From contig BK006949.2 in NCBI GenBank assembly GCA_000146045.2, positions 704,001-768,000 on the forward strand: 64,000 nucleotides of DNA. Reading direction: 5' to 3'. Below are positions 2,972-40,355 of the stretch, piece by piece (position 1 is the first letter of the stretch; each line of letters opens with the position of its first letter). The notes beneath the pieces are model-generated. The model was given only the letters and a program-made list of their open reading frames with translations. It ran no database searches and had not been told where the DNA came from. The position numbers and the translations under genes are program-made. Source of the DNA: TPA_inf: Saccharomyces (taxonomy: Eukaryota).

Positions 2972-4342
2972 ATGTCAGAGAAGGCTTCTGAAGAGAGACC
3001 CATACGGCTGGCCGTTCTGGGGGGCACTTCTACCGGAAAGACCTCCCTGGTATCTAGGCTTACTGTTAATATCGTCCACGAGGTTCATTATCCAACAAGA
3101 AACCAAACTAACTGGCTTTTCGGCTTTGTTCCGTCATCGATCCTGGCCAGAGCTATATTAGACGAACAAGCTCACGAAAGACTTTGCCTTCGTTCCCCAA
3201 GCAGCCAAACCTTAGAGCCTATCTTCCCTTCACCTCAGGTCTCCAAAAATGTACTGCTGTCGCCATTGGTGTTTCAAGCTTCCACTGATAATTTTCAATC
3301 AGTGAGGTTACACAACAAAAGCCACTCCAGGAGATCCCTATCTTTGGATAAATCTGATTCTCCGCTGTATCAAACTTTTTCCAATGACATTAACTCTCAA
3401 AGTGTTCCTAAAATCAAGGCAGACCAGCTTAACGTTATCGAGCATTTTAAATTGCCCCTGAATTACATTCCACCCACTTATGCACCAATCCAGATTGATA
3501 TTATTGATACGCCTGGCTTCAGTCCTGATAATGTGGTGCCGTTCTTAGAAGTTTCTCTCTTCCGAAATTTAGGAAAATCAATCCTACATGGACTAGCAGA
3601 TGAACCAAGACGACCTGTATCTACTACTTCACTATTGGTTGCCTCTGGTGCCTCTGAGTTGAATGGTAAAGTTGACGGTTATATCTTGGTGTATAGCGCA
3701 GTCCCTGAATTAAACCATATTGGAGGCCCTCCGGAATATGGAGATGATGTGATGAACACAGATACGGAAAACGTCAGCGATGGTGGATTTGAACTTTTAA
3801 AAGTGATTAGAAACTGCATACTAGATGCTTGGACTGAATTTCGAAATTATGAAAAAAGATGGGAGGAAGGCAAAGAGGATGATATTTACTCATTGGTTTA
3901 CAGCCTGAGACATCTATGGAGTAAAAATAGCAAAGAGAAAAGCGCCAAAATAGAGCAATTGAGATCCTATAATACCAAACTAAAATCCATCGAGTTAGAC
4001 CCCTCATCTCCCGATTCACCACCACCATGCATTATCGTCTGTTCTCACGTTAATCATGAACTCGCAAGCCCAATGTTGATTGAAATGGGAAGACAACTAG
4101 CAACAAAATGGAAATATGGATTTGTTGGAATAGACAGCATGGATGATTTAAATGTCGATGTGGCGGTTAGCTTACTAATAAAGGAAATATCAGAAAAGAT
4201 GAAGCTACTGGTTTCTAATTCCAATGGAAGTAGTAGTAGTGGTAATTCAAGTTCAATTTACAACTCTCATTTAATGAATGACAAGAAGAAAAACAACAAT
4301 GCCGGCTTAAACAAAAATATGTTGAAGAAAATTATAAAATAA
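2972..4342 (+). CDS. YPR084W, uncharacterised protein, 456 aa
   Basis: ATG at 2972 opens a 456-codon ORF at the position expected for YPR084W between MDM36 and ASA1. It has an N-terminal GxxxxGKT-like motif (LGGTSTGKTS). Confidence 0.75.
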   Translation: MSEKASEERPIRLAVLGGTSTGKTSLVSRLTVNIVHEVHYPTRNQTNWLFGFVPSSILARAILDEQAHERLCLRSPSSQTLEPIFPSPQVSKNVLLSPLVFQASTDNFQSVRLHNKSHSRRSLSLDKSDSPLYQTFSNDINSQSVPKIKADQLNVIEHFKLPLNYIPPTYAPIQIDIIDTPGFSPDNVVPFLEVSLFRNLGKSILHGLADEPRRPVSTTSLLVASGASELNGKVDGYILVYSAVPELNHIGGPPEYGDDVMNTDTENVSDGGFELLKVIRNCILDAWTEFRNYEKRWEEGKEDDIYSLVYSLRHLWSKNSKEKSAKIEQLRSYNTKLKSIELDPSSPDSPPPCIIVCSHVNHELASPMLIEMGRQLATKWKYGFVGIDSMDDLNVDVAVSLLIKEISEKMKLLVSNSNGSSSSGNSSSIYNSHLMNDKKKNNNAGLNKNMLKKIIK

Positions 4343-12155: not shown

Positions 12156-14468
12156 TCACAGTTTGGGCTCTCGCTGTTCTTCAAATTCTAAATCTTGCTT
12201 GAAAAAGCCGTCATTAAAACGATTCTGAGAGGTCTTCTTAACAAAAGCTTGAGAGCTTTCAAGTTTTGAAGCTTTCACATGGGGATCACCATTTTTGAGC
12301 GAATTCTGAGAATCATTTGAGGATACAGAAAACTTTCTATTTTCTTTGTTCGCAAACATCTTTGAAGCATTCATATTTGAAGCCGACGGTGGAACTGGAA
12401 AATTCTCAGTGTCTTTTTCCTTCCTGCCTTCTAGTTTTGGAGATAGTGTATTTAACGGTTGTGAAGGCCTTCTTGGTACTGGTCTCCTATTAGAAATCAT
12501 TTTTGGATTGGATGTAAGGATAGGATTATCTGATTCTCTCTCATCTGCTGAATCGTCATTTTTCTTATCTTGAACATCTATTTCATCCATATCTTCGGTG
12601 TCACTCGAATTACCAACATTATCCTTATACCATCTACCGATTTTCTTGATTGAATTCTTGAAGTATTTCCTTGACTTGGTAGAATTTTCAGAACTGGAAA
12701 CATCATCATTAGTCGCGGTTGTGACTGTTGTCTGGGTTGTAGTTTTCGTTGCCACTCCAGATGCGTCAACAAGATCTTTTAGGTTTTCTTTCTTTCTCTC
12801 TGGCCTTAAGGCTTTTTTGATTCGACTCTGGGTTTTCATTCCGCCCTCTTGAAGTGCTTCTAAGTGTTCCTTAGCACTAGTATTATTCATATCTGAGGCT
12901 GCCGCAGCAGTGCGAGCCCTCGCCGCTGCCTCAGGATCCTGCTCCTCCCAAATACCACCTCTGTATACTTCATTAGGTGTTGGATAAAAAACAATATCAT
13001 CCATAAACGGTACAACTAGGGACTCCTTCACGGCTTCGGCAAACTTACTCTTTATAGCGTTAGTAACGACGTTGTATGATAATTTACTTGAACTGACAAT
13101 GGGCTCAATTTCAAAATCCATTATAGGTTCGGTGCGAAAAGCATACCAAATTCTGTTAGATGGAGGTGGTTTGATTAAAAATAAAAGTGGACCGGAAAAT
13201 TCTTTAATTTTTATGGACAACTGCAAAGAAACCTCCCTTTGTTTGAAACGTGATCCCAAGTTAATACTCGCCTTTGTCGCAATAATAATTGTCAAGTTTC
13301 CCCTGTATTGAACGTCGATAGCAATCTTAGTCGAACCCTCAGGAGACAATTCTAATAACTCAGGAGAGGTGAATAATGGAGCACTATCACCCACGTCGAC
13401 CTTTTCAACAACCAAATCATCCAAGAACCCTGGGGTTTTTATTTTATTCAATTTCTTGCAGATTTTCTCATGAATAAACTTATTCAACGTATCAGTTTGT
13501 TGCAGAGAAAGAAATAATCTCCCAAGAAGAGCATTCAGCCACTTAGTAGTTAACTGATTTTCAGTAGAGTTGATATCCTGAATCAATTGTAACATATCCT
13601 TAGTCTTCAAATGAGCTGCGTTAGCTGAAACATTAGGATCCAATAAACCAGTTGAGAGGGAATTACTGTTTTTAGAGGCATTGATCAACTGATAATACCA
13701 ATCTTCTTTGTCCATGTTATTATCGAAATACAAGAAGAACTGATTTGAGCTATGGAATTGTGATTGATATTCATGTGTAGTGTCATTGGTAGAGATGTCA
13801 CCGTTATTCGATTCAGCACTGGTAAGTGGGTCGAAGTGTGGCAGGATAACATTATGGTTTTTAGAGTCTATAGAAACGAGGTCATTCTTGAAAATAGCAA
13901 TACAAGTTCTCTTAGTGAAAAGCGAGGCATCTGGCAATTCTTCCTTACCCAGTTCATCGAAACGGGGCCAAATGGTGATAAATCTGTTTTGTAAAGATAT
14001 AGCATGGACCAAATTTGCATTTTGAGAATCGTCTTTATACAAAAACAAATTTCCATGTCTTAATACTGCAAAAAACCTTTGTTTTTTCTTCAAGTCTGTT
14101 CTTTGCAAGATTTGCTCTTGAAGTGCAGTGTCTGAATCTTTATTATTATTAGAATTCTTCAAAATTACAGCCACTTCTGAAGAATGATAATAATATTGCT
14201 TAGTGACGGTGATCCAACCCTTGTTAAAAACTTTGACACCTAATTGCTCTTCTAGCTTGCGTGCTTTAAACTCTGGGTCTATATCGCGAGCCAGAAGTCT
14301 GGTTTTCTCATCAATTTCGTCTGCTGTATCATGATCTAGCTCCTTCTTCGATGCCGATTTAAGGTTACTGTACAATAAATGGATTTTATAGAGGGTGAAA
14401 AGGACCAAAGGCAAAAATGTGATACCGCCAAGCAAGTAAACTGCGAGAAATACCTTCAAGCTAGCCAT
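12156..14468 (-). CDS. NVJ2: NVJ2 (YPR091C), SMP/PH-domain lipid-transfer protein of the nucleus-vacuole junction, 770 aa
   Basis: ATG (cat at 14466-14468) opens a 770-aa ORF with an N-terminal transmembrane segment (LKVFLAVYLLGGITFLPLVLFTLY). Length and sequence match Nvj2. Confidence 0.85.
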   Translation of the reverse strand: MASLKVFLAVYLLGGITFLPLVLFTLYKIHLLYSNLKSASKKELDHDTADEIDEKTRLLARDIDPEFKARKLEEQLGVKVFNKGWITVTKQYYYHSSEVAVILKNSNNNKDSDTALQEQILQRTDLKKKQRFFAVLRHGNLFLYKDDSQNANLVHAISLQNRFITIWPRFDELGKEELPDASLFTKRTCIAIFKNDLVSIDSKNHNVILPHFDPLTSAESNNGDISTNDTTHEYQSQFHSSNQFFLYFDNNMDKEDWYYQLINASKNSNSLSTGLLDPNVSANAAHLKTKDMLQLIQDINSTENQLTTKWLNALLGRLFLSLQQTDTLNKFIHEKICKKLNKIKTPGFLDDLVVEKVDVGDSAPLFTSPELLELSPEGSTKIAIDVQYRGNLTIIIATKASINLGSRFKQREVSLQLSIKIKEFSGPLLFLIKPPPSNRIWYAFRTEPIMDFEIEPIVSSSKLSYNVVTNAIKSKFAEAVKESLVVPFMDDIVFYPTPNEVYRGGIWEEQDPEAAARARTAAAASDMNNTSAKEHLEALQEGGMKTQSRIKKALRPERKKENLKDLVDASGVATKTTTQTTVTTATNDDVSSSENSTKSRKYFKNSIKKIGRWYKDNVGNSSDTEDMDEIDVQDKKNDDSADERESDNPILTSNPKMISNRRPVPRRPSQPLNTLSPKLEGRKEKDTENFPVPPSASNMNASKMFANKENRKFSVSSNDSQNSLKNGDPHVKASKLESSQAFVKKTSQNRFNDGFFKQDLEFEEQREPKL

Positions 14469-14692
14469 TATGGTCTTTTAATGCTACTTTTCTCTTGCTG
14501 TTCTGCTCTTCGATGTGTTCAAAACCCTTTCTCCTGGTTATTATACAAGAGGGATTTACGGAGAAAACTTAAGTGGGAGAAAACTGAAAAATGTGCCATA
14601 CCAATTAGGTGCAAAAATGAAAGATCTAAAGGGAAGAGAACCAAGAGTTATTTAAAGGGCTACATAGGGTGCAAGATTAGTTAGGTTGTAGA

Positions 14693-14813
14693 ACTAGTTT
14701 TTCAGAGTCATTAAATCAGTTATTTTTTATTTTGTAGTCATCAATTAGCCCCTTCGTTAAAGAGACCAATCTAGTACAGTGTGAATATAAAAAAATCATC
14801 ATAATAAACTAGT
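14693..14813 (-). ncRNA. SNR51: box C/D snoRNA, snR51 (guide for 18S Am100)
   Basis: On the minus strand the order is: 5' ACUAGU stem, C box AUGAUGA (plus 14796-14802), a C' box UGAUGAC, a 16-nt guide AUAACUGAUUUAAUGA, then D box CUGA (plus 14702-14705) and a 3' ACUAGU stem. The guide (plus 14708-14723) is perfectly complementary to the 18S rRNA 5' region ...GGCUCAUUAAAUCAGUUAU... The fifth nucleotide upstream of D pairs with A100. The ends are approximate. Confidence 0.8.
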
Positions 14814-14874
14814 CCGCAACAGTCTCTTTTATCATCCAAATCAACTGATAAGGAATAAATTGAAATAAGAAACA

Positions 14875-15060
14875 AATTTCCGAAAAAATCAGATGTCTTG
14901 TGACCAATCATCAATTCTCCACTAAAGAACCATAATGCCATCAACATCGCTCCTTTAAAAAATTTGTACACAAAAGAACGATGAGAGTAGACGGCGACCC
15001 TTTAACAGATACTAATATGTCCGCCCGGTCGACAACAAATCATCATATCAAAAGGAAAAT
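14875..15060 (-). ncRNA. SNR70: box C/D snoRNA, probably snR70 (middle unit of the polycistron)
   Basis: On the minus strand the order is: 5' UUUCC stem, C box AUGAUGA (plus 15040-15046), an internal C' UGAUGA (about plus 14907-14913), then D box CUGA (plus 14889-14892) and a 3' GGAAA stem. It is about 165-185 nt. Its identity rests on position between the other two snoRNAs. I could not confirm a guide duplex by eye. Confidence 0.6.
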
Positions 15061-15129
15061 TAAAAATTCCATTGCAGGCATGAAAAAGATAATAATGAAA
15101 GATAAATGCTTTCTTTTCTTCCCTTCCGT

Positions 15130-15248
15130 GGCACCCCTCATACAAGGCTGAAACTTAACGAAAAAGGGTTGTCGACATGTAGTTAAACCACTATTCAGTC
15201 GGAACAATTGGTATATGATTAATAATTTTTAATCATAGGGGAGTCACA
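15130..15248 (-). ncRNA. SNR41: box C/D snoRNA, snR41 (guides for 18S Am541 and Gm1126), with degenerate C (AUGAUUA) and D (AUGA) boxes
   Basis: The minus strand carries two guides. Guide 1 is CCAAUUGUUCC (plus 15201-15211), complementary to 18S GGAACAAUUGG. It lies two nucleotides 5' of a CUGA (plus 15195-15198), so the fifth nucleotide upstream pairs with the first A of GGAAC. Guide 2 is UUAAGUUUCAGCCUUG (plus 15143-15158), complementary to 18S CAAGGCUGAAACUUAA. It is followed by U then AUGA, so the fifth nucleotide pairs with a G. The terminal stem is CCCCU/AGGGG. The ends are approximate. Confidence 0.6.
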
Positions 15249-15450
15249 CAGAAAGAAAATGGAAAAAGAAAAAAGGAACTCATATATTATCTCTTCCAAG
15301 GGACCTACTGGTCGCTTAATCTGCCTCTTTGTAGTGCAGTAGCACTCACAATGGTGCTATATTTGAGTTTGTTCAACTGTTTTCTATTGAAGACGAAGAA
15401 GCAAACAAAGGAAGATGTGAAAAAAAAATTCTATGGGTCAAACTTGTGCT

Positions 15451-15503
15451 TTTATACGTCGTACGAGAGATGGGTCACCCGCTTCTGAGGGTTTTTTTTA
15501 GGG
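15451..15503 (-). promoter_or_regulatory. Putative promoter of the snR41-snR70-snR51 polycistron: Tbf1 site plus TATA box
   Basis: On the minus strand a TATAAAAG (plus 15451-15458) lies about 40 bp downstream of RCCCTAA (plus ttaggg at 15498-15503), with an oligo(dA:dT) tract between them. A Tbf1 site plus TATA is the known architecture of yeast snoRNA promoters. Confidence 0.4.
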
Positions 15504-15557
15504 CTCATACTAGAGTATTATACTGTTTATATCTTGTTTTAATGTTATATTGCATTA

Positions 15558-16490
15558 CTACTCATCATGACAGTAAATTAGGAGTTCTGTGTGCACTCCA
15601 GTTCGGGCTAAAGAGTCGTAATCGTACTGGTCAGGCAGGTACTTGTTGTCAGAGAGACGGTACAACTTGCGGGATACTTGCTTGTTGACGTGCTTGTAGG
15701 CATCCTTGAAGCGCAGCAGAGGCAGTGGGTACCGGTCCAGTGCTCGTCGCACGTGCATCTGGATTTTGTGCTTGGCATTCCGTATCTGTTCATACATCTG
15801 CTGTGTCTTGACGCTGTGCTTGTCCCGTAACTCACCAGCAAAAATCATGGAATTCCTGGAATCGTAGCTAGCAAGTTGGCTACTGATAGCACCCATGCGC
15901 AGCTCGAGCAATGCATTTGATCTACAATCTGTGCACTCCTGCCACGTATTGCGATCGCCCACCTCACAAGCTAGCCCGCGTAGACATGTTTCGTGATATA
16001 TTGCTTCGCAGTCTTGGCAATACAGGCTTAATCGAGAAACATCTGTGTCTCCGCATATGCTGCACTGAATTATCTTAATGGTATCCATCACCAGCGTACC
16101 TCTAAGCCTTTCGCTGAGAAATTCTATTTCTTGGTCTTGCTCCCCTGTATCGTCCTCATTTCTTTCGTTAGTTGTTTCGGCCCCCACATAATCGATAGCA
16201 TTCTTAATCATAAACCCCATCTTCAAATTTATAGAAAGTGCATGTTGCCCTTCGCCAACTTCTAAATGGGTGGATTCAACCCTGCAGATGGGGCACTTCA
16301 AGTTGATACTATACTTGTGCCACTCTCTTATACAGTTTAAGTGGAATTTATGCCCGCAAACGTTCAAACATCCAAATTGTTCACCCTCTTGGTCATCTGC
16401 CAAACAAATAGGACACTCTTCCATCTTTTTATATGATATTTGGATATTTGGCTGAGGGTATGGTCTCTCCCTTGGCTCAACTCCTTGCAT
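15558..16490 (-). CDS. ASR1: ASR1 (YPR093C), RING/PHD-finger ubiquitin ligase that binds the RNA Pol II CTD
   Basis: ATG (cat at 16488-16490) opens a 310-codon ORF. It has a RING-H2 (CPICL...[13 protein letters not shown]...CPICR) and a second Cys-rich PHD-like finger. An internal ATG at 16424 (MEECPICL) would give the 288-aa form I half-remember for Asr1. Confidence 0.8.
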
Positions 16491-36060: not shown

Positions 36061-37392
36061 ATGAACAGTACACCTCCTACGTCACCCGTCACCAGGGTTT
36101 CTGATGGTTCCTTTCCATCCATAAGTAACAATAGTAAGGGTTTTGCTTATCGCCAACCGCAAAAACATAAAAGTAACTTCGCATATTCACATCTGGTATC
36201 TCCTGTAGAGGAGCCGACAGCTAAATTCAGTGAGGCATTCCAGACAGATTATTCTAGTAAGGCGCCCGTTGCTACCTCGGAGGCGCACCTAAAGAACGAT
36301 TTAGACGTATTGTTCACTACCCCCCGGTTTTACTCTCCGGAGAATTTGGCTTTAATGTTCCGTCTTTCTAATACAGTTTCTTCCCTAGAATTTCTGGATG
36401 AGTTTTTGATGGGCATATTACTTGCTCCAGAGATGGATTTTTTGTCAAATCCAAGTTATTCTCTTCCGTCTAACAAATTAGTGGGACAGGGAAGTTATTC
36501 ATATGTGTACCCTATATCATCAAGTGCTTCATCAAGATGTAACAACGATTCAGGGGTTGTTTTAAAGTTTGCCAAATCACAGCATAAAAGCAAGGTGATT
36601 TTACAGGAAGCTTTGACGCTAGCATATCTCCAGTACATGAGTCCTTCAACCAATGAAAGTCATATTATTCCATTCTATGGGTTGACATACATAACTAAAT
36701 CCCATTTTAGAAGACTGAGGTCCAACGAATGTGTTCCTGGCCTTATTCTTCCGAAATGCGAAATGAGTTTATATCACTTCAATACAGCAGTGTCACATAA
36801 GCTTTCGTTGATAACAAAAAGAAAAATATGGTGGAGACTTATGAAGCAAATGATAGACGCATTAAAATCTTTGAAAACAAATGGTATAATTCATGGTGAT
36901 ATAAAAACAGCAAATATTTTAATAACAGAAATGCATGTTCTTAATGGAGGCCATTGTAAGGATTTTGACTTCTACCTTGCTGACTTTACGTCGGCATTTC
37001 ACATTAATCAAACACCAACAGATCTGAATACCACGGTAGAATACTGTGCACCAGAACTAATTGATAGCTCCTCCGATCATGTTCCTACATTTGAATCGGA
37101 TTTGTATGCCGTGGGGCTTTGTCTTTTATCATTTATATCGCAGCATGAGCCTTACAACGAACTTCAGGCGTTAGTGTCGCATGGATCCTCTCCAGGTATT
37201 GGCAGTTCATCTATACAGCAGTCCCAATGGCTGATAAATGCTCTTTTGAAAAAAGATCCTATAAATCTAAACATGTTAAGAAACGATTTATTCCAGGATT
37301 GGAAGTCAGAACTAGCATTATTGTCCAGAATTCTGGTTGATAGACTTCCTCTAGAAAATCTCATAACTATACTCGATAGTAACTATATATGA
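36061..37392 (+). CDS. ISR1: ISR1 (YPR106W), Ser/Thr protein kinase, 443 aa
   Basis: ATG at 36061 opens a 443-aa ORF. Kinase motifs are present (HGDIKTANILI, DFTSAF). Confidence 0.85.
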   Translation: MNSTPPTSPVTRVSDGSFPSISNNSKGFAYRQPQKHKSNFAYSHLVSPVEEPTAKFSEAFQTDYSSKAPVATSEAHLKNDLDVLFTTPRFYSPENLALMFRLSNTVSSLEFLDEFLMGILLAPEMDFLSNPSYSLPSNKLVGQGSYSYVYPISSSASSRCNNDSGVVLKFAKSQHKSKVILQEALTLAYLQYMSPSTNESHIIPFYGLTYITKSHFRRLRSNECVPGLILPKCEMSLYHFNTAVSHKLSLITKRKIWWRLMKQMIDALKSLKTNGIIHGDIKTANILITEMHVLNGGHCKDFDFYLADFTSAFHINQTPTDLNTTVEYCAPELIDSSSDHVPTFESDLYAVGLCLLSFISQHEPYNELQALVSHGSSPGIGSSSIQQSQWLINALLKKDPINLNMLRNDLFQDWKSELALLSRILVDRLPLENLITILDSNYI

Positions 37393-40283: not shown

Positions 40284-40355
40284 GCCTCCTTAGCTTAGTG
40301 GTAGAGCGTTGCACTTGTAATGCAAAGGTCGTTAGTTCAATTCTGACAGGTGGCA
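40284..40355 (+). tRNA. tT(UGU)P: tRNA-Thr (anticodon UGU), 72 nt, no intron
   Basis: It folds as a cloverleaf. The D stem is GCTT/GAGC. The anticodon stem is TTGCA/TGCAA with loop CTTGTAA, giving anticodon TGT. The T arm is GTTAG-TTCAATT-CTGAC, and A is the discriminator. The acceptor stem has 6 of 7 pairs, with a U.U at 4-68. Confidence 0.85.

What the first reader, a model, noticed from the sequence alone, without database searches (positions are those of the whole stretch)
14693..15248. Polycistronic box C/D snoRNA array (snR41-snR70-snR51) in the NVJ2/ASR1 intergenic region, invisible to the ORF track
The 1.1-kb gap between NVJ2 and ASR1 holds no convincing ORF. On the minus strand it holds three consecutive units with box C/D architecture: terminal stem, RUGAUGA, internal C'/D', CUGA, terminal stem. 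The unit next to NVJ2 has a 16-nt guide, AUAACUGAUUUAAUGA, immediately 5' of its D box. That guide is perfectly complementary to the 18S rRNA 5' region and places A100 at the fifth position, which is the snR51 target. The unit furthest from NVJ2 has two guides complementary to 18S GGAACAAUUGG and CAAGGCUGAAACUUAA, the snR41 targets Am541 and Gm1126. The middle unit has canonical boxes and is snR70 by inference. This is the richest non-coding content of the window, and it shows that a protein-only reading misses real genes.
Basis: partly seen in the sequence, partly recalled or inferred. Interest (0 to 1): 0.55.

Follow-up and report, generated by a model that had tools for sequence, protein, structure and literature searches.

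The report
Known yeast snR41-snR70-snR51 snoRNA cluster

Summary
The finding is correct and already known. The window is S. cerevisiae chrXVI (offset 704,000). Rfam places snR41 (15133-15242), snR70 (14887-15050) and snR51 (14700-14806) on the minus strand, each at 2-3.4 times its gathering score. Against Rfam-verified yeast rDNA fetched here, the guides obey the box D/D' +5 rule for 18S A100, A541, G1126 and C1639 and for 25S U2729, the published targets. A published deletion removes exactly 14700-15242 and abolishes Am100.

snR70's guide is short (7 bp, plus 3 after a bulge) and is helped by a published 10-nt loop pairing.

The cluster lies upstream of NVJ2 in 8 of 9 yeasts examined. Published PARE data place Rnt1 cuts in both spacers.

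One extra point may be new. Spacer 1 has no AGNN hairpin of its own. It pairs with the 5' leader directly below the leader's short AGUA hairpin, and the mapped spacer-1 cut lies exactly 14 steps from that tetraloop. This suggests a single composite Rnt1 site that frees snR41 on both sides.

The parts
15494..15506 (-). Promoter element GAGCCCTAAAAAA. It matches the Tbf1-type ARCCCTAA motif of yeast snoRNA promoters (motif recalled from memory).
   Evidence: Invariant in S. cerevisiae, S. kudriavzevii and S. uvarum; coordinates. PMC4138321 names Tbf1 and Rap1 as the primary factors at S. cerevisiae snoRNA genes. Binding was not tested here.
15474..15482 (-). Conserved GCGGGTGAC element, Reb1-like by memory of the CGGGTRR motif.
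   Evidence: Invariant in the 3 Saccharomyces species; coordinates. The factor assignment is an inference.
15449..15456 (-). TATA box TATAAAAG, within the conserved ACGTATAAAAG.
   Evidence: Invariant in the 3 species; coordinates. It lies about 210 nt upstream of snR41.
15296..15319 (-). 5' leader hairpin UUAAGCGACC-AGUA-GGUCCCUUGG: 10-bp stem with one C-C mismatch, AGNN tetraloop at 15309-15306. Proposed Rnt1 docking site.
   Evidence: An AGNN loop is kept in 8 of 9 species (AGUA, AGUG, AGUU, AGCA, AGGG). Two A-U to G-C double changes in the stem between S. cerevisiae and S. kudriavzevii/S. uvarum. PMC5934358 reports a NET-seq signal at the predicted Rnt1 site of the SNR41 leader.
15245..15295 (-). 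Leader strand (purine-rich R0, then pyrimidine tract Y1) that pairs with spacer 1 to form a long helix enclosing snR41. Predicted +16 Rnt1 cut at 15290|15289.
   Evidence: Leader:spacer-1 duplex -53.9 kcal/mol, z -7.0 against shuffles. It starts 0 nt after the hairpin. Step table. The +16 cut is predicted, not observed.
15133..15242 (-). snR41, 110 nt. Terminal stem 15241-15238 / 15137-15134. Box C AUGAUUA 15236-15230. D' guide 15211-15201 (18S 539-549, Am541). D' CUGA 15198-15195. D guide 15158-15143 (18S 1123-1138, Gm1126). Box D AUGA 15141-15138.
   Evidence: Rfam RF01218, 126.8 bits, gathering score 50. Antisense matches. Boxes. Terminal stem covaries: 83% paired vs 52% shuffled, 4 of 4 pairs with double changes. 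Boxes and guides invariant in 9 species.
15051..15132 (-). Spacer 1, 82 nt (purine tract 15131-15109, pyrimidine tract 15101-15082). No conserved AGNN hairpin of its own. Rnt1 cut at 15088|15087, with nibbled ends at 15086-15084.
   Evidence: PARE 5' ends at chrXVI 719084-719087, with 719087 also cut by recombinant Rnt1 (PMC13183374 supp.; mapped). The S. cerevisiae AGCA loop becomes AACA and AAUA in sister species. Folded alone, the spacer is no more stable than shuffles (z +0.11).
14887..15050 (-). snR70, 164 nt. Box C AUGAUGA 15046-15040. Guide 15031-15021 (18S 1636-1645 with a 1-nt bulge, Cm1639). Degenerate D' CAUA 15019-15016. Long internal hairpin whose loop UGUGUACAAA 14972-14963 pairs with 18S 1626-1635. 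C' UGAUGA 14913-14908. Box D CUGA 14892-14889.
   Evidence: Rfam RF01238, 187.8 bits, gathering score 55.. Guide, D' and loop invariant in 7 species. The accessory pairing is published and tested (PMC3116282).
14807..14886 (-). Spacer 2, 80 nt, with an extended hairpin at 14873-14822 capped by an AGUU tetraloop (14846-14843). Rnt1 cuts at 14867|14866 and 14827|14826.
   Evidence: Fold -15.8 kcal/mol. An AUC-AGNN-GAU hairpin in 7 of 9 species with variable NN. PARE ends at chrXVI 718866 and 718826, both cut in vitro. The 3' cut is exactly +16, and the pair leaves a 2-nt 3' overhang (and hand count).
14700..14806 (-). snR51, 107 nt. Box C AUGAUGA 14802-14796. D' guide 14787-14777 (25S 2726-2736, Um2729). 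Degenerate D' ACUA 14775-14772. C' UGAUGA 14743-14738. D guide 14723-14708 (18S 98-113, Am100). Box D CUGA 14705-14702.
   Evidence: Rfam RF01214, 93.2 bits, gathering score 44.. D' is GUGA in Z. rouxii, T. globosa and L. thermotolerans at the same position. A published deletion of 14700-15242 abolishes Am100 and a plasmid restores it (PMC3938493).
14620..14699 (-). 3' flank: one half of snR51's external stem (AACUAGUUC, 14699-14691), followed by Nab3-type UCUU(G) motifs (starting at 14676, 14646, 14637, 14624) and a Nrd1-type GUAG (starting at 14663). Probable NNS terminator just upstream of the NVJ2 start.
   Evidence: Motif enrichment is only marginal (5 observed vs 2.3 expected, P = 0.07). 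AAACTAGTT and TTCTTGC are conserved in the 3 species. Termination here is an inference from known snoRNA biology (PMC5934358).

Best explanation
This is the S. cerevisiae SNR41-SNR70-SNR51 polycistronic box C/D snoRNA gene ('snoRNA cluster III'; YNCP0015C/14C/13C) on chrXVI between ASR1 and NVJ2.

Steps, with basis:
1. RNA polymerase II starts downstream of a conserved promoter (Tbf1-type element, GCGGGTGAC, TATA) about 100-150 nt before snR41. This is inferred.
2. One precursor is transcribed through all three units and ends in a Nab3/Nrd1-motif region just before NVJ2. This is inferred.
3. RNase III (Rnt1) cuts the precursor in spacer 1 and on both arms of the AGUU hairpin in spacer 2. This is shown by published PARE.
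4. 5'-3' exonucleases (Rat1/Xrn1) and the exosome trim to the snoRNP-protected ends. This comes from established knowledge.
5. Each mature RNA assembles with Snu13/Nop56/Nop58/Nop1 on its C/D k-turn, and its guides pair with pre-rRNA so that Nop1 methylates the nucleotide opposite the fifth position upstream of box D or D'. The sites are snR41: 18S Am541 and Gm1126; snR70: 18S Cm1639, helped by a 10-nt loop pairing with 18S 1626-1635; snR51: 18S Am100 and 25S Um2729. Complementarity and +5 geometry are shown here; the methylation itself is from the literature.

Sub-claim, about 0.6 confidence. snR41 is released by a single composite Rnt1 site. The leader's AGUA hairpin (10 bp) stacks on a helix formed between the leader and spacer 1. 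The enzyme then cuts 14 steps from the loop on the spacer-1 strand (observed, 15088|15087) and 16 steps on the leader strand (predicted, 15290|15289).
For: Identity:
- Rfam hits far above gathering scores.
- The NVJ2, ASR1 and ISR1 products are exact S. cerevisiae proteins; NVJ2 and ISR1 are identical to S288C.
- Published deletion primers bracket exactly 14700-15242.

Guides:
- 16-, 16-, 11- and 11-nt perfect antisense matches to Rfam-verified 18S (L010) and 25S (L011), and 7+3 bp for snR70.
- The +5 rule lands on A100, A541, G1126, C1639 and U2729, as published.

Conservation:
- The same three genes lie in the same order upstream of NVJ2 in 8 of 9 Saccharomycetaceae.
- Boxes and guides are invariant while linkers vary.
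- The snR41 terminal stem covaries.

Processing:
- SNR41 is uncapped, proximal in a polycistron, and has a NET-seq signal at its predicted Rnt1 site.
- PARE sites in both spacers are confirmed with recombinant Rnt1.
- The spacer-2 cuts fit +16 with a 2-nt overhang.

Composite site:
- The hairpin stem is only 6-11 bp in 8 species.
- The leader pairs with spacer 1 within 0-1 nt of the hairpin in 6 species, for 31-54 inter-strand bp.
- Duplex z-scores range from -2.7 to -7.5 in 7 species.
- No species has a conserved AGNN hairpin in spacer 1.
- The observed cut is exactly at step 14.
- The 261-nt spacing between the two canonical predictions equals the spacing between PARE sites 718826 and 719087.
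Against: Identity: nothing substantive. Minor points are that snR41's C and D boxes and the D' boxes of snR70 and snR51 deviate from consensus, that 11-nt matches are not beyond chance on length alone, and that no expression data were generated here.

Composite Rnt1 site:
- The partner cut in the leader (about chrXVI 719289) is absent from the PARE table. This may be because PARE used poly(A)+ RNA, and a doubly cut fragment has no tail.
- A weak local spacer-1 hairpin can be drawn in which 15087 lies in the lower stem.
- The polypurine/polypyrimidine tracts allow several alternative pairings.
- In the unconstrained S. cerevisiae fold the AGUA hairpin is replaced by long-range pairing, 2.6 kcal/mol better.
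- L. thermotolerans and K. lactis do not show the same arrangement.
Confidence: 0.97

Rival explanations
1. The identity is the same, but snR41 and snR70 are separated by a conventional local Rnt1 hairpin inside spacer 1: the purine tract 15131-15109 folding onto the pyrimidine tract 15101-15082. The leader AGUA hairpin would be an independent site used only to remove the cap.
For: Spacer 1 alone folds into such a hairpin (-12.2 kcal/mol), and the cut at 15088|15087 lies in its lower stem. An AGCA sequence sits at the tip in S. cerevisiae, with 11 of 16 positions pairable. Rnt1 can cut some non-AGNN loops in vitro (PMC13183374 introduction).
Against: The local fold is no better than shuffles (z +0.11). 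The MFE loop is a heptaloop, CAUUUAU. The AGCA becomes AACA and AAUA in S. kudriavzevii and S. uvarum. The cut is 19 nt from AGCA, not 16. The expected partner cut near 15119 is absent from PARE, although both arms of the spacer-2 hairpin were detected. No other species has an AGNN hairpin in spacer 1. The leader hairpin alone (6-11 bp) is too short to contain a 14/16-nt cut.
Confidence: 0.25
2. The long leader:spacer-1 helix is mainly an external terminal stem that brings boxes C and D of snR41 together for snoRNP assembly. snR41's own stem is only 4 bp and its boxes are non-canonical. Under this reading the coincidence with the Rnt1 cut is secondary.
For: The helix runs right up to snR41's terminal stem. 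snR51 likewise has a conserved 9-bp external stem. The snR41 box C/D deviations are conserved. External stems that aid C/D snoRNA processing are established knowledge, recalled from memory.
Against: This does not explain why the AGNN hairpin always abuts the helix with a 0-1 nt gap, or why the mapped cut is exactly 14 steps from the loop. It is compatible with the composite-site model rather than exclusive of it.
Confidence: 0.1
3. The three units are chance look-alikes or pseudogenes, and the region is simply the NVJ2 promoter and ASR1 terminator.
For: None beyond the fact that 10-12-nt antisense matches to rRNA occur by chance on both strands.
Against: Rfam E-values from 6e-10 to 1e-47. Two 16-nt matches, against 1 of 300 shuffles reaching one. 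Invariant guides across 9 species. A covarying stem. Published genetics.
Confidence: 0.005

Closest known systems
S. cerevisiae SNR41-SNR70-SNR51 ('snoRNA cluster III'; Rfam RF01218, RF01238, RF01214)
   Same: It is this locus: same genome, same coordinates (chrXVI 718700-719242), same targets, same deletion boundaries.
   Different: Nothing differs.
snR72-snR78 polycistronic cluster of S. cerevisiae (Qu et al. 1999; cited in PMC5033589)
   Same: Head-to-tail box C/D snoRNAs on one Pol II transcript, separated by Rnt1 cleavage in spacers and then trimmed by Rat1/Xrn1.
   Different: There, each spacer is described as forming its own stem-loop cleaved by Rnt1p. Here only spacer 2 has its own AGNN hairpin, and spacer 1 appears to borrow the leader's tetraloop.
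Bacterial RNase III processing stalks, where flanks of 16S/23S rRNA pair around the mature RNA (recalled from memory)
   Same: The sequences on both sides of the mature RNA pair with each other, and one RNase III double cut would release it with short extensions.
   Different: Yeast Rnt1 needs an AGNN tetraloop as a ruler. Here that loop would be supplied by a side hairpin at a three-way junction, not by the helix end.
Cluster III in Candida, Debaryomyces and filamentous fungi (PMC3596301, PMC5033589)
   Same: Same three snoRNAs in the same order.
   Different: In those fungi the snoRNAs are intronic and released by splicing. In Saccharomycetaceae they are exonic and released by Rnt1.
Human SNORD43 (same Rfam clan as snR70, CL00059)
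   Same: It guides the equivalent 18S C (recalled from memory) with a GGGCGGAC-type guide.
   Different: It is short and, as I recall it, lacks the roughly 100-nt internal hairpin and accessory loop of yeast snR70. This was not tested here.

Membership tests
Box C/D 2'-O-methylation guide snoRNA | Box C (RUGAUGA) near the 5' end and box D (CUGA) near the 3' end. | tested here: met
   snR70 and snR51 have AUGAUGA and CUGA. snR41 has AUGAUUA and AUGA, one mismatch each, invariant in 9 species. PMC3596301 lists ATGA as an accepted D box for these clusters.
Box C/D 2'-O-methylation guide snoRNA | A terminal stem that brings C and D together (k-turn stem I). | tested here: met
   snR41 has a 4-bp stem with compensatory changes at all 4 pairs. 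snR51 has a conserved 9-bp external stem. For snR70 only a weak 5-bp external pairing was seen by eye, so that unit is inconclusive.
Box C/D 2'-O-methylation guide snoRNA | An antisense element of 10 nt or more, ending so that the target pairs with the 5th nucleotide upstream of D or D'. | tested here: met
   Met for four guides (16, 16, 11 and 11 bp) on Rfam-verified rDNA. snR70 has only 7 contiguous bp (10 with a bulge) plus a 10-bp accessory pairing. PMC3116282 lists it among the snoRNAs with the shortest guides.
Box C/D 2'-O-methylation guide snoRNA | Internal C'/D' motifs. | tested here: inconclusive
   snR41 D' is a canonical CUGA. The D' boxes of snR70 (CAUA) and snR51 (ACUA) are degenerate but positionally conserved. 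PMC8413462 shows that the snR41 and snR51 C'/D' elements do not bind Snu13 in vitro. PMC3116282 shows the divergent motifs of snR51 and snR70 still direct methylation.
Box C/D 2'-O-methylation guide snoRNA | A stable RNA bound by Nop1/Nop56/Nop58/Snu13, whose loss removes the methyl group. | not testable with these tools
   Literature only: CRAC cross-links for snR70 and snR51 (PMC3116282), and deletion and complementation experiments (PMC3938493 and PMC5199042).
Rfam snR41 / snR70 / snR51 | Covariance-model score at or above the curated gathering score. | tested here: met
   126.8 vs 50, 187.8 vs 55 and 93.2 vs 44, all full-length matches.
Rnt1-processed polycistronic snoRNA unit | Same-strand tandem snoRNAs with one promoter and no promoter elements in the spacers. 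| tested here: inconclusive
   Conserved TATA and Tbf1-type elements were found only upstream of snR41, and the spacers are 80-82 nt. No transcription-start data were examined. The literature calls the unit polycistronic.
Rnt1-processed polycistronic snoRNA unit | An AGNN-capped stem-loop in every spacer, with cuts at -14/+16. | tested here: not met
   Met for spacer 2 (AGUU; PARE cuts fit). Not met for spacer 1, which has no conserved AGNN hairpin. Its cut fits -14 only when counted from the leader's AGUA loop across a leader:spacer-1 helix.
Rnt1-processed polycistronic snoRNA unit | Rnt1-dependent cleavage demonstrated. | not testable with these tools
   Literature: PARE comparing RNT1 with rnt1-delta, plus recombinant Rnt1 (PMC13183374), and NET-seq (PMC5934358).

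The most novel reading that the evidence does not exclude
snR41 is excised by a bipartite, three-way-junction Rnt1 substrate. A short AGNN hairpin in the 5' leader acts as the ruler, and the duplex that is actually cut is formed in cis between the leader and the snR41-snR70 spacer. One Rnt1 binding event would then remove the cap, free snR41 on both sides, and open the entry site for 5' trimming of snR70. The arrangement is conserved in at least six Saccharomycetaceae despite unalignable sequences. I could not read the primary Rnt1 papers (Chanfreau 1998; Ghazal 2005), so this structure may already be described. The probability given is for it being both true and undescribed.
Probability: 0.3. 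Interest if true: 0.4.

Novelty: already known. Interest (0 to 1): 0.1.

Why it matters
As a test of the scan, it shows that a sequence-only reader can recognise real non-coding genes that an ORF track misses, and can get their targets right. Biologically the locus is textbook material. It is annotated in the yeast genome, has Rfam families, has been deleted, complemented and used in vitro, and its Rnt1 cuts have been mapped. Nothing about the main finding changes current understanding.

The only part with possible research value is the processing architecture of spacer 1. If the composite Rnt1 site is real and undescribed, it would add a way for a tetraloop-ruled RNase III to make a double cut around a structured RNA. 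It would also explain why snR41's leader and spacer co-vary in length between species.

Tried and rejected
1. Length alone as evidence for the 11-nt guides. Rejected because shuffles commonly give 11-mers and the plus strand has chance 11- and 12-mers.

2. Folding each spacer on its own to find Rnt1 sites. This worked for spacer 2 but not spacer 1 (z +0.11). The S. cerevisiae AGCA loop in spacer 1 is not conserved.

3. Reading the primary Rnt1 papers: Qu 1999 (PMC116044), Ghazal 2005 (PMC1069626 and its DOI), Lee 2003 (PMC1287058) and Chanfreau 1998 (PMC1170708). None is held.

4. Verifying the chrXVI offset through an AGNN hairpin at the ISR1 PARE site. No clean hairpin was found. The offset was instead supported by ISR1 identity, by the exact fit of the spacer-2 cuts, and by the 261-nt spacing.

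5. L011 for the 18S reference. Its first repeat lacked the 18S and the second copy did not match position by position (110 apparent differences), so L010 was used for 18S and L011 only for 25S. The 25S in L010 is collapsed.

6. The idea that snR70's loop pairing with 18S 1626-1635 was a new observation. Rejected: it is published and tested (PMC3116282).

7. NNS terminator motif enrichment downstream of snR51. Only marginal (P = 0.07).

8. The bacterial sigma-70 promoter and terminator scanner was not used, because it is not applicable to yeast.
Full report
**Where we are.** The 770-aa ORF at 12156-14468(-) is identical to S288C Nvj2p. The ORF at 15558-16490(-) is Asr1p/YPR093C. The ORF at 36061-37392(+) is identical to S288C Isr1p. 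The window is therefore S. cerevisiae chrXVI. Its length and the fits described below put its first base at chrXVI 704,001. The gap between the NVJ2 start codon and the ASR1 stop codon is 14469-15557, 1089 nt.

- snR41 at 15133-15242: 126.8 bits, gathering score 50.
- snR70 at 14887-15050: 187.8 bits, gathering score 55.
- snR51 at 14700-14806: 93.2 bits, gathering score 44.

The only other hit in the window is a tRNA. The homology arms of the deletion primers published for 'snoRNA cluster 3' match 15243-15282(-) and 14660-14699(+). That deletion therefore removes exactly 14700-15242, the outer limits of the Rfam hits. It abolishes Am100, and a plasmid carrying the cluster restores it (PMC3938493).

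**Guide test on real rDNA.** rDNA is not in the window, so I fetched yeast rDNA from metagenome contigs using a 25S D1/D2 pattern. Rfam confirmed an 1800-nt 18S at L010 3784-5583(-) and a 3396-nt 25S starting at L011 3900. I then ran an unbiased search for perfect antisense matches of 10 nt or more between the whole 1089-nt gap (both strands) and 18S/5.8S/25S. On the minus strand it found:
- Two 16-mers: 18S 98-113 with 14723-14708, and 18S 1123-1138 with 15158-15143.
- Two 11-mers: 18S 539-549 with 15211-15201, and 25S 2726-2736 with 14787-14777.
- A 10-mer in snR70: 18S 1626-1635 with 14972-14963.

In 300 shuffles the longest match was usually 11 nt, and only one shuffle reached 16. The 16-mers are therefore far beyond chance. 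The 11-mers are not, on length alone (the plus strand has chance 11- and 12-mers), and they owe their significance to position.

**Box positions and the +5 rule.** Counting from the boxes found:

| Box | Window position | Target |
|---|---|---|
| snR51 box D CUGA | 14705-14702 | 18S A100 |
| snR51 D' | 14775-14772 | 25S U2729 |
| snR41 D' CUGA | 15198-15195 | 18S A541 |
| snR41 box D | 15141-15138 | 18S G1126 |
| snR70 D' | 15019-15016 | 18S C1639 |

These are exactly the published assignments (PMC5199042 table; PMC8307265).

**Corrections to the description.**
- snR41 does not have canonical boxes. Box C is AUGAUUA and box D is AUGA, and both are invariant in nine species.
- The snR51 D guide ends two nucleotides (CU) before box D.
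- An internal CUGA inside that guide (14719-14716) is not a box.
- The D' boxes of snR51 (ACUA) and snR70 (CAUA) are degenerate. In Z. rouxii, T. globosa and L. thermotolerans the snR51 D' reads GUGA at the same place, which supports the placement.
- The snR70 guide is only 7 contiguous bp (CCGCCCG), plus 3 bp after a bulged C. It is backed by the 10-nt loop of its long internal hairpin, which pairs with the rRNA immediately 5' of the target. I noticed this independently, but it is published and functionally tested (PMC3116282).

**Conservation.** Through NVJ2 homologs I fetched nine orthologous loci. Rfam finds snR41, snR70 and snR51, in that order and on the NVJ2 strand, in the gene-free gap upstream of NVJ2 in 8 of 9 species. 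In K. africana and K. lactis snR70 is below threshold, and V. polyspora has no hit. Boxes and guides are invariant while linkers diverge. The 4-bp terminal stem of snR41 covaries: 83% of cells are paired against 52% in shuffles, all four pairs show double changes, and all slid registers score much lower. The literature describes the cluster as conserved across fungi, intronic outside the Saccharomycetaceae (PMC3596301, PMC5033589).

**Expression signals.** In the three Saccharomyces species the upstream region keeps GAGCCCTAAAAAA (15506-15494), GCGGGTGAC (15482-15474) and ACGTATAAAAG (TATA at 15456-15449). Tbf1 is reported as a main factor at yeast snoRNA promoters (PMC4138321). The motif match itself rests on my memory of ARCCCTAA. 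Downstream of snR51 there are several UCUU(G) motifs and one GUAG before the NVJ2 ATG. Their enrichment is marginal (P = 0.07).

**Processing: published data.** PMC5934358 lists SNR41 as the uncapped proximal snoRNA of a polycistronic unit, with a NET-seq signal over its predicted Rnt1 site. PMC13183374 maps Rnt1-dependent 5'-phosphate ends by PARE at chrXVI 718826, 718865, 718866 and 719084-719087 on the minus strand. Of these, 718826, 718866 and 719087 were also produced by recombinant Rnt1. With the 704,000 offset these are window 14826, 14865/6 and 15084-15087.

**Spacer 2.** Spacer 2 folds into an extended hairpin (14873-14822) capped by AGUU (14846-14843). The tetraloop varies only within AGNN in other species (AGCG, AGUG, AGAA, AGGG, AGUC). 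The 3' cut at 14827|14826 is exactly 16 nt from the loop. The 5' cut at 14867|14866 sits at the top of the 7-bp lower stem and leaves a 2-nt 3' overhang. This is canonical Rnt1 geometry as described in PMC13183374.

**The spacer-1 puzzle.** Spacer 1 has no conserved AGNN hairpin. Its AGCA in S. cerevisiae is AACA and AAUA in the sister species. Alone it folds no better than shuffles. The leader does carry a conserved hairpin, GCGACC-AGUA-GGUC (15319-15296), with two A-U to G-C double changes between species. An AGNN loop is present there in 8 of 9 species. But the stem is only 6-11 bp, too short to contain cuts at 14/16 nt.

The leader and spacer 1 are strongly complementary. The 60-nt flanks give -36.7 kcal/mol (z -5.4), and the full leader and spacer give -53.9 kcal/mol (z -7.0). 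Similar excesses appear in S. kudriavzevii, S. uvarum, N. dairenensis, K. africana, Z. rouxii and T. globosa, although the sequences are unalignable. In S. uvarum both tracts are longer.

With the hairpin enforced, the leader starts pairing with spacer 1 within 0-1 nt of the hairpin's 3' end in six species. Counting down this stacked helix in S. cerevisiae, steps 1-10 are the hairpin and steps 11-14 are leader 15295-15292 paired with spacer-1 U15084-U15087. The in-vitro-confirmed product starts at 15087, so the cut is after step 14, the canonical -14 position. The weaker ends at 15086-15084 fit the 'nibbling' that the authors describe. The distance between this position and the +16 position of the spacer-2 hairpin is 261 nt, identical to 719087 minus 718826.

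On timing: an earlier notebook entry gave an uncounted guess of 15080-15075. The counted value, 15087, comes from the structure. I had worked it out before opening the PARE table, but it was only logged afterwards.

**Caveats on the composite site.**
- The predicted partner cut (15290|15289) is not in the PARE table. PARE used poly(A)+ RNA, and a fragment cut on both sides has no tail, so its absence is not decisive. NET-seq is reported positive for the leader site.
- Alternative pairings of the purine and pyrimidine tracts exist.
- L. thermotolerans and K. lactis differ from the other species.
- I could not read the original Rnt1 papers, and the PARE table flags all these sites as belonging to a 'known substrate'.

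I rate the composite model at about 0.6 and the local-hairpin rival at about 0.25.

**Verdict.** The finding is a correct rediscovery of an annotated, intensively studied locus. Novelty: already known. Interest is low. The only thread worth pulling is the spacer-1 processing architecture.

Noticed in passing
window 15245-15319 and 15051-15132 (-): The snR41 5' leader and the snR41-snR70 spacer form a long conserved helix that abuts the leader's AGUA hairpin. The published Rnt1 cut in spacer 1 (15088|15087) is exactly 14 steps from that tetraloop.
   Followed up: yes
window 14379-14684 (+): A 101-aa ORF equal to 'putative uncharacterized protein YPR092W'. It is antisense to the NVJ2 5' end and the snoRNA terminator region. 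Its cluster has only 2 members, both S. cerevisiae, and sister species have non-triplet indels there. It is probably not a gene.
   Followed up: partly
window 15558-16490 (-): The ASR1 reading frame is open for 310 aa from the first ATG, but several strain annotations give 288 aa, starting at Met23. Which start is used was not examined.
   Followed up: no
window 14963-14972 (-): The snR70 hairpin loop UGUGUACAAA is perfectly complementary to 18S 1626-1635, directly adjacent to the Cm1639 guide duplex. This turned out to be the published 'extra base-pairing' (PMC3116282).
   Followed up: yes
window 14716-14719 (-): A perfect CUGA lies inside the snR51 D guide and could be mistaken for a D or D' box by motif scanning. 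It is part of the antisense element.
   Followed up: yes
window 14771-14971 (-): A 66-aa GTG-initiated ORF runs through snR51, spacer 2 and snR70 on the snoRNA strand. It is a mechanical artefact of ORF listing.
   Followed up: no
window 40284-40355 (+): tRNA-Thr (anticodon UGU): Rfam 68.6 bits, confirmed by ARAGORN.
   Followed up: no
window 36750 (+), inside ISR1: The PARE table lists an Rnt1 site here (chrXVI 740750, cut in vitro), but I found no clean A/UGNN-capped stem at -14/+16 with a simple scan.
   Followed up: partly
L016 (V. polyspora NVJ2 locus): There are no snR41, snR70 or snR51 hits upstream of this NVJ2 homolog, and a cofilin-domain gene lies upstream. The cluster may sit at the other post-duplication copy or elsewhere.
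   Followed up: no
L015 about 3590-3610 (K. africana); L020 (K. lactis): snR70 falls below the Rfam gathering score in these two species, yet the K. africana sequence downstream of snR41 contains the invariant guide CGACCGGGCGGACAUA. snR70 is therefore present there but diverged.
   Followed up: partly
L010 1653-3023 and L011 1-3500: The metagenome rDNA contigs are imperfect. The 25S in L010 is collapsed to 1371 nt while spanning the whole model. L011 lacks the 18S upstream of its first 25S, and its downstream 18S copy did not match L010 position by position. These are probably repeat-assembly artefacts or an indel shifting the comparison.
   Followed up: no
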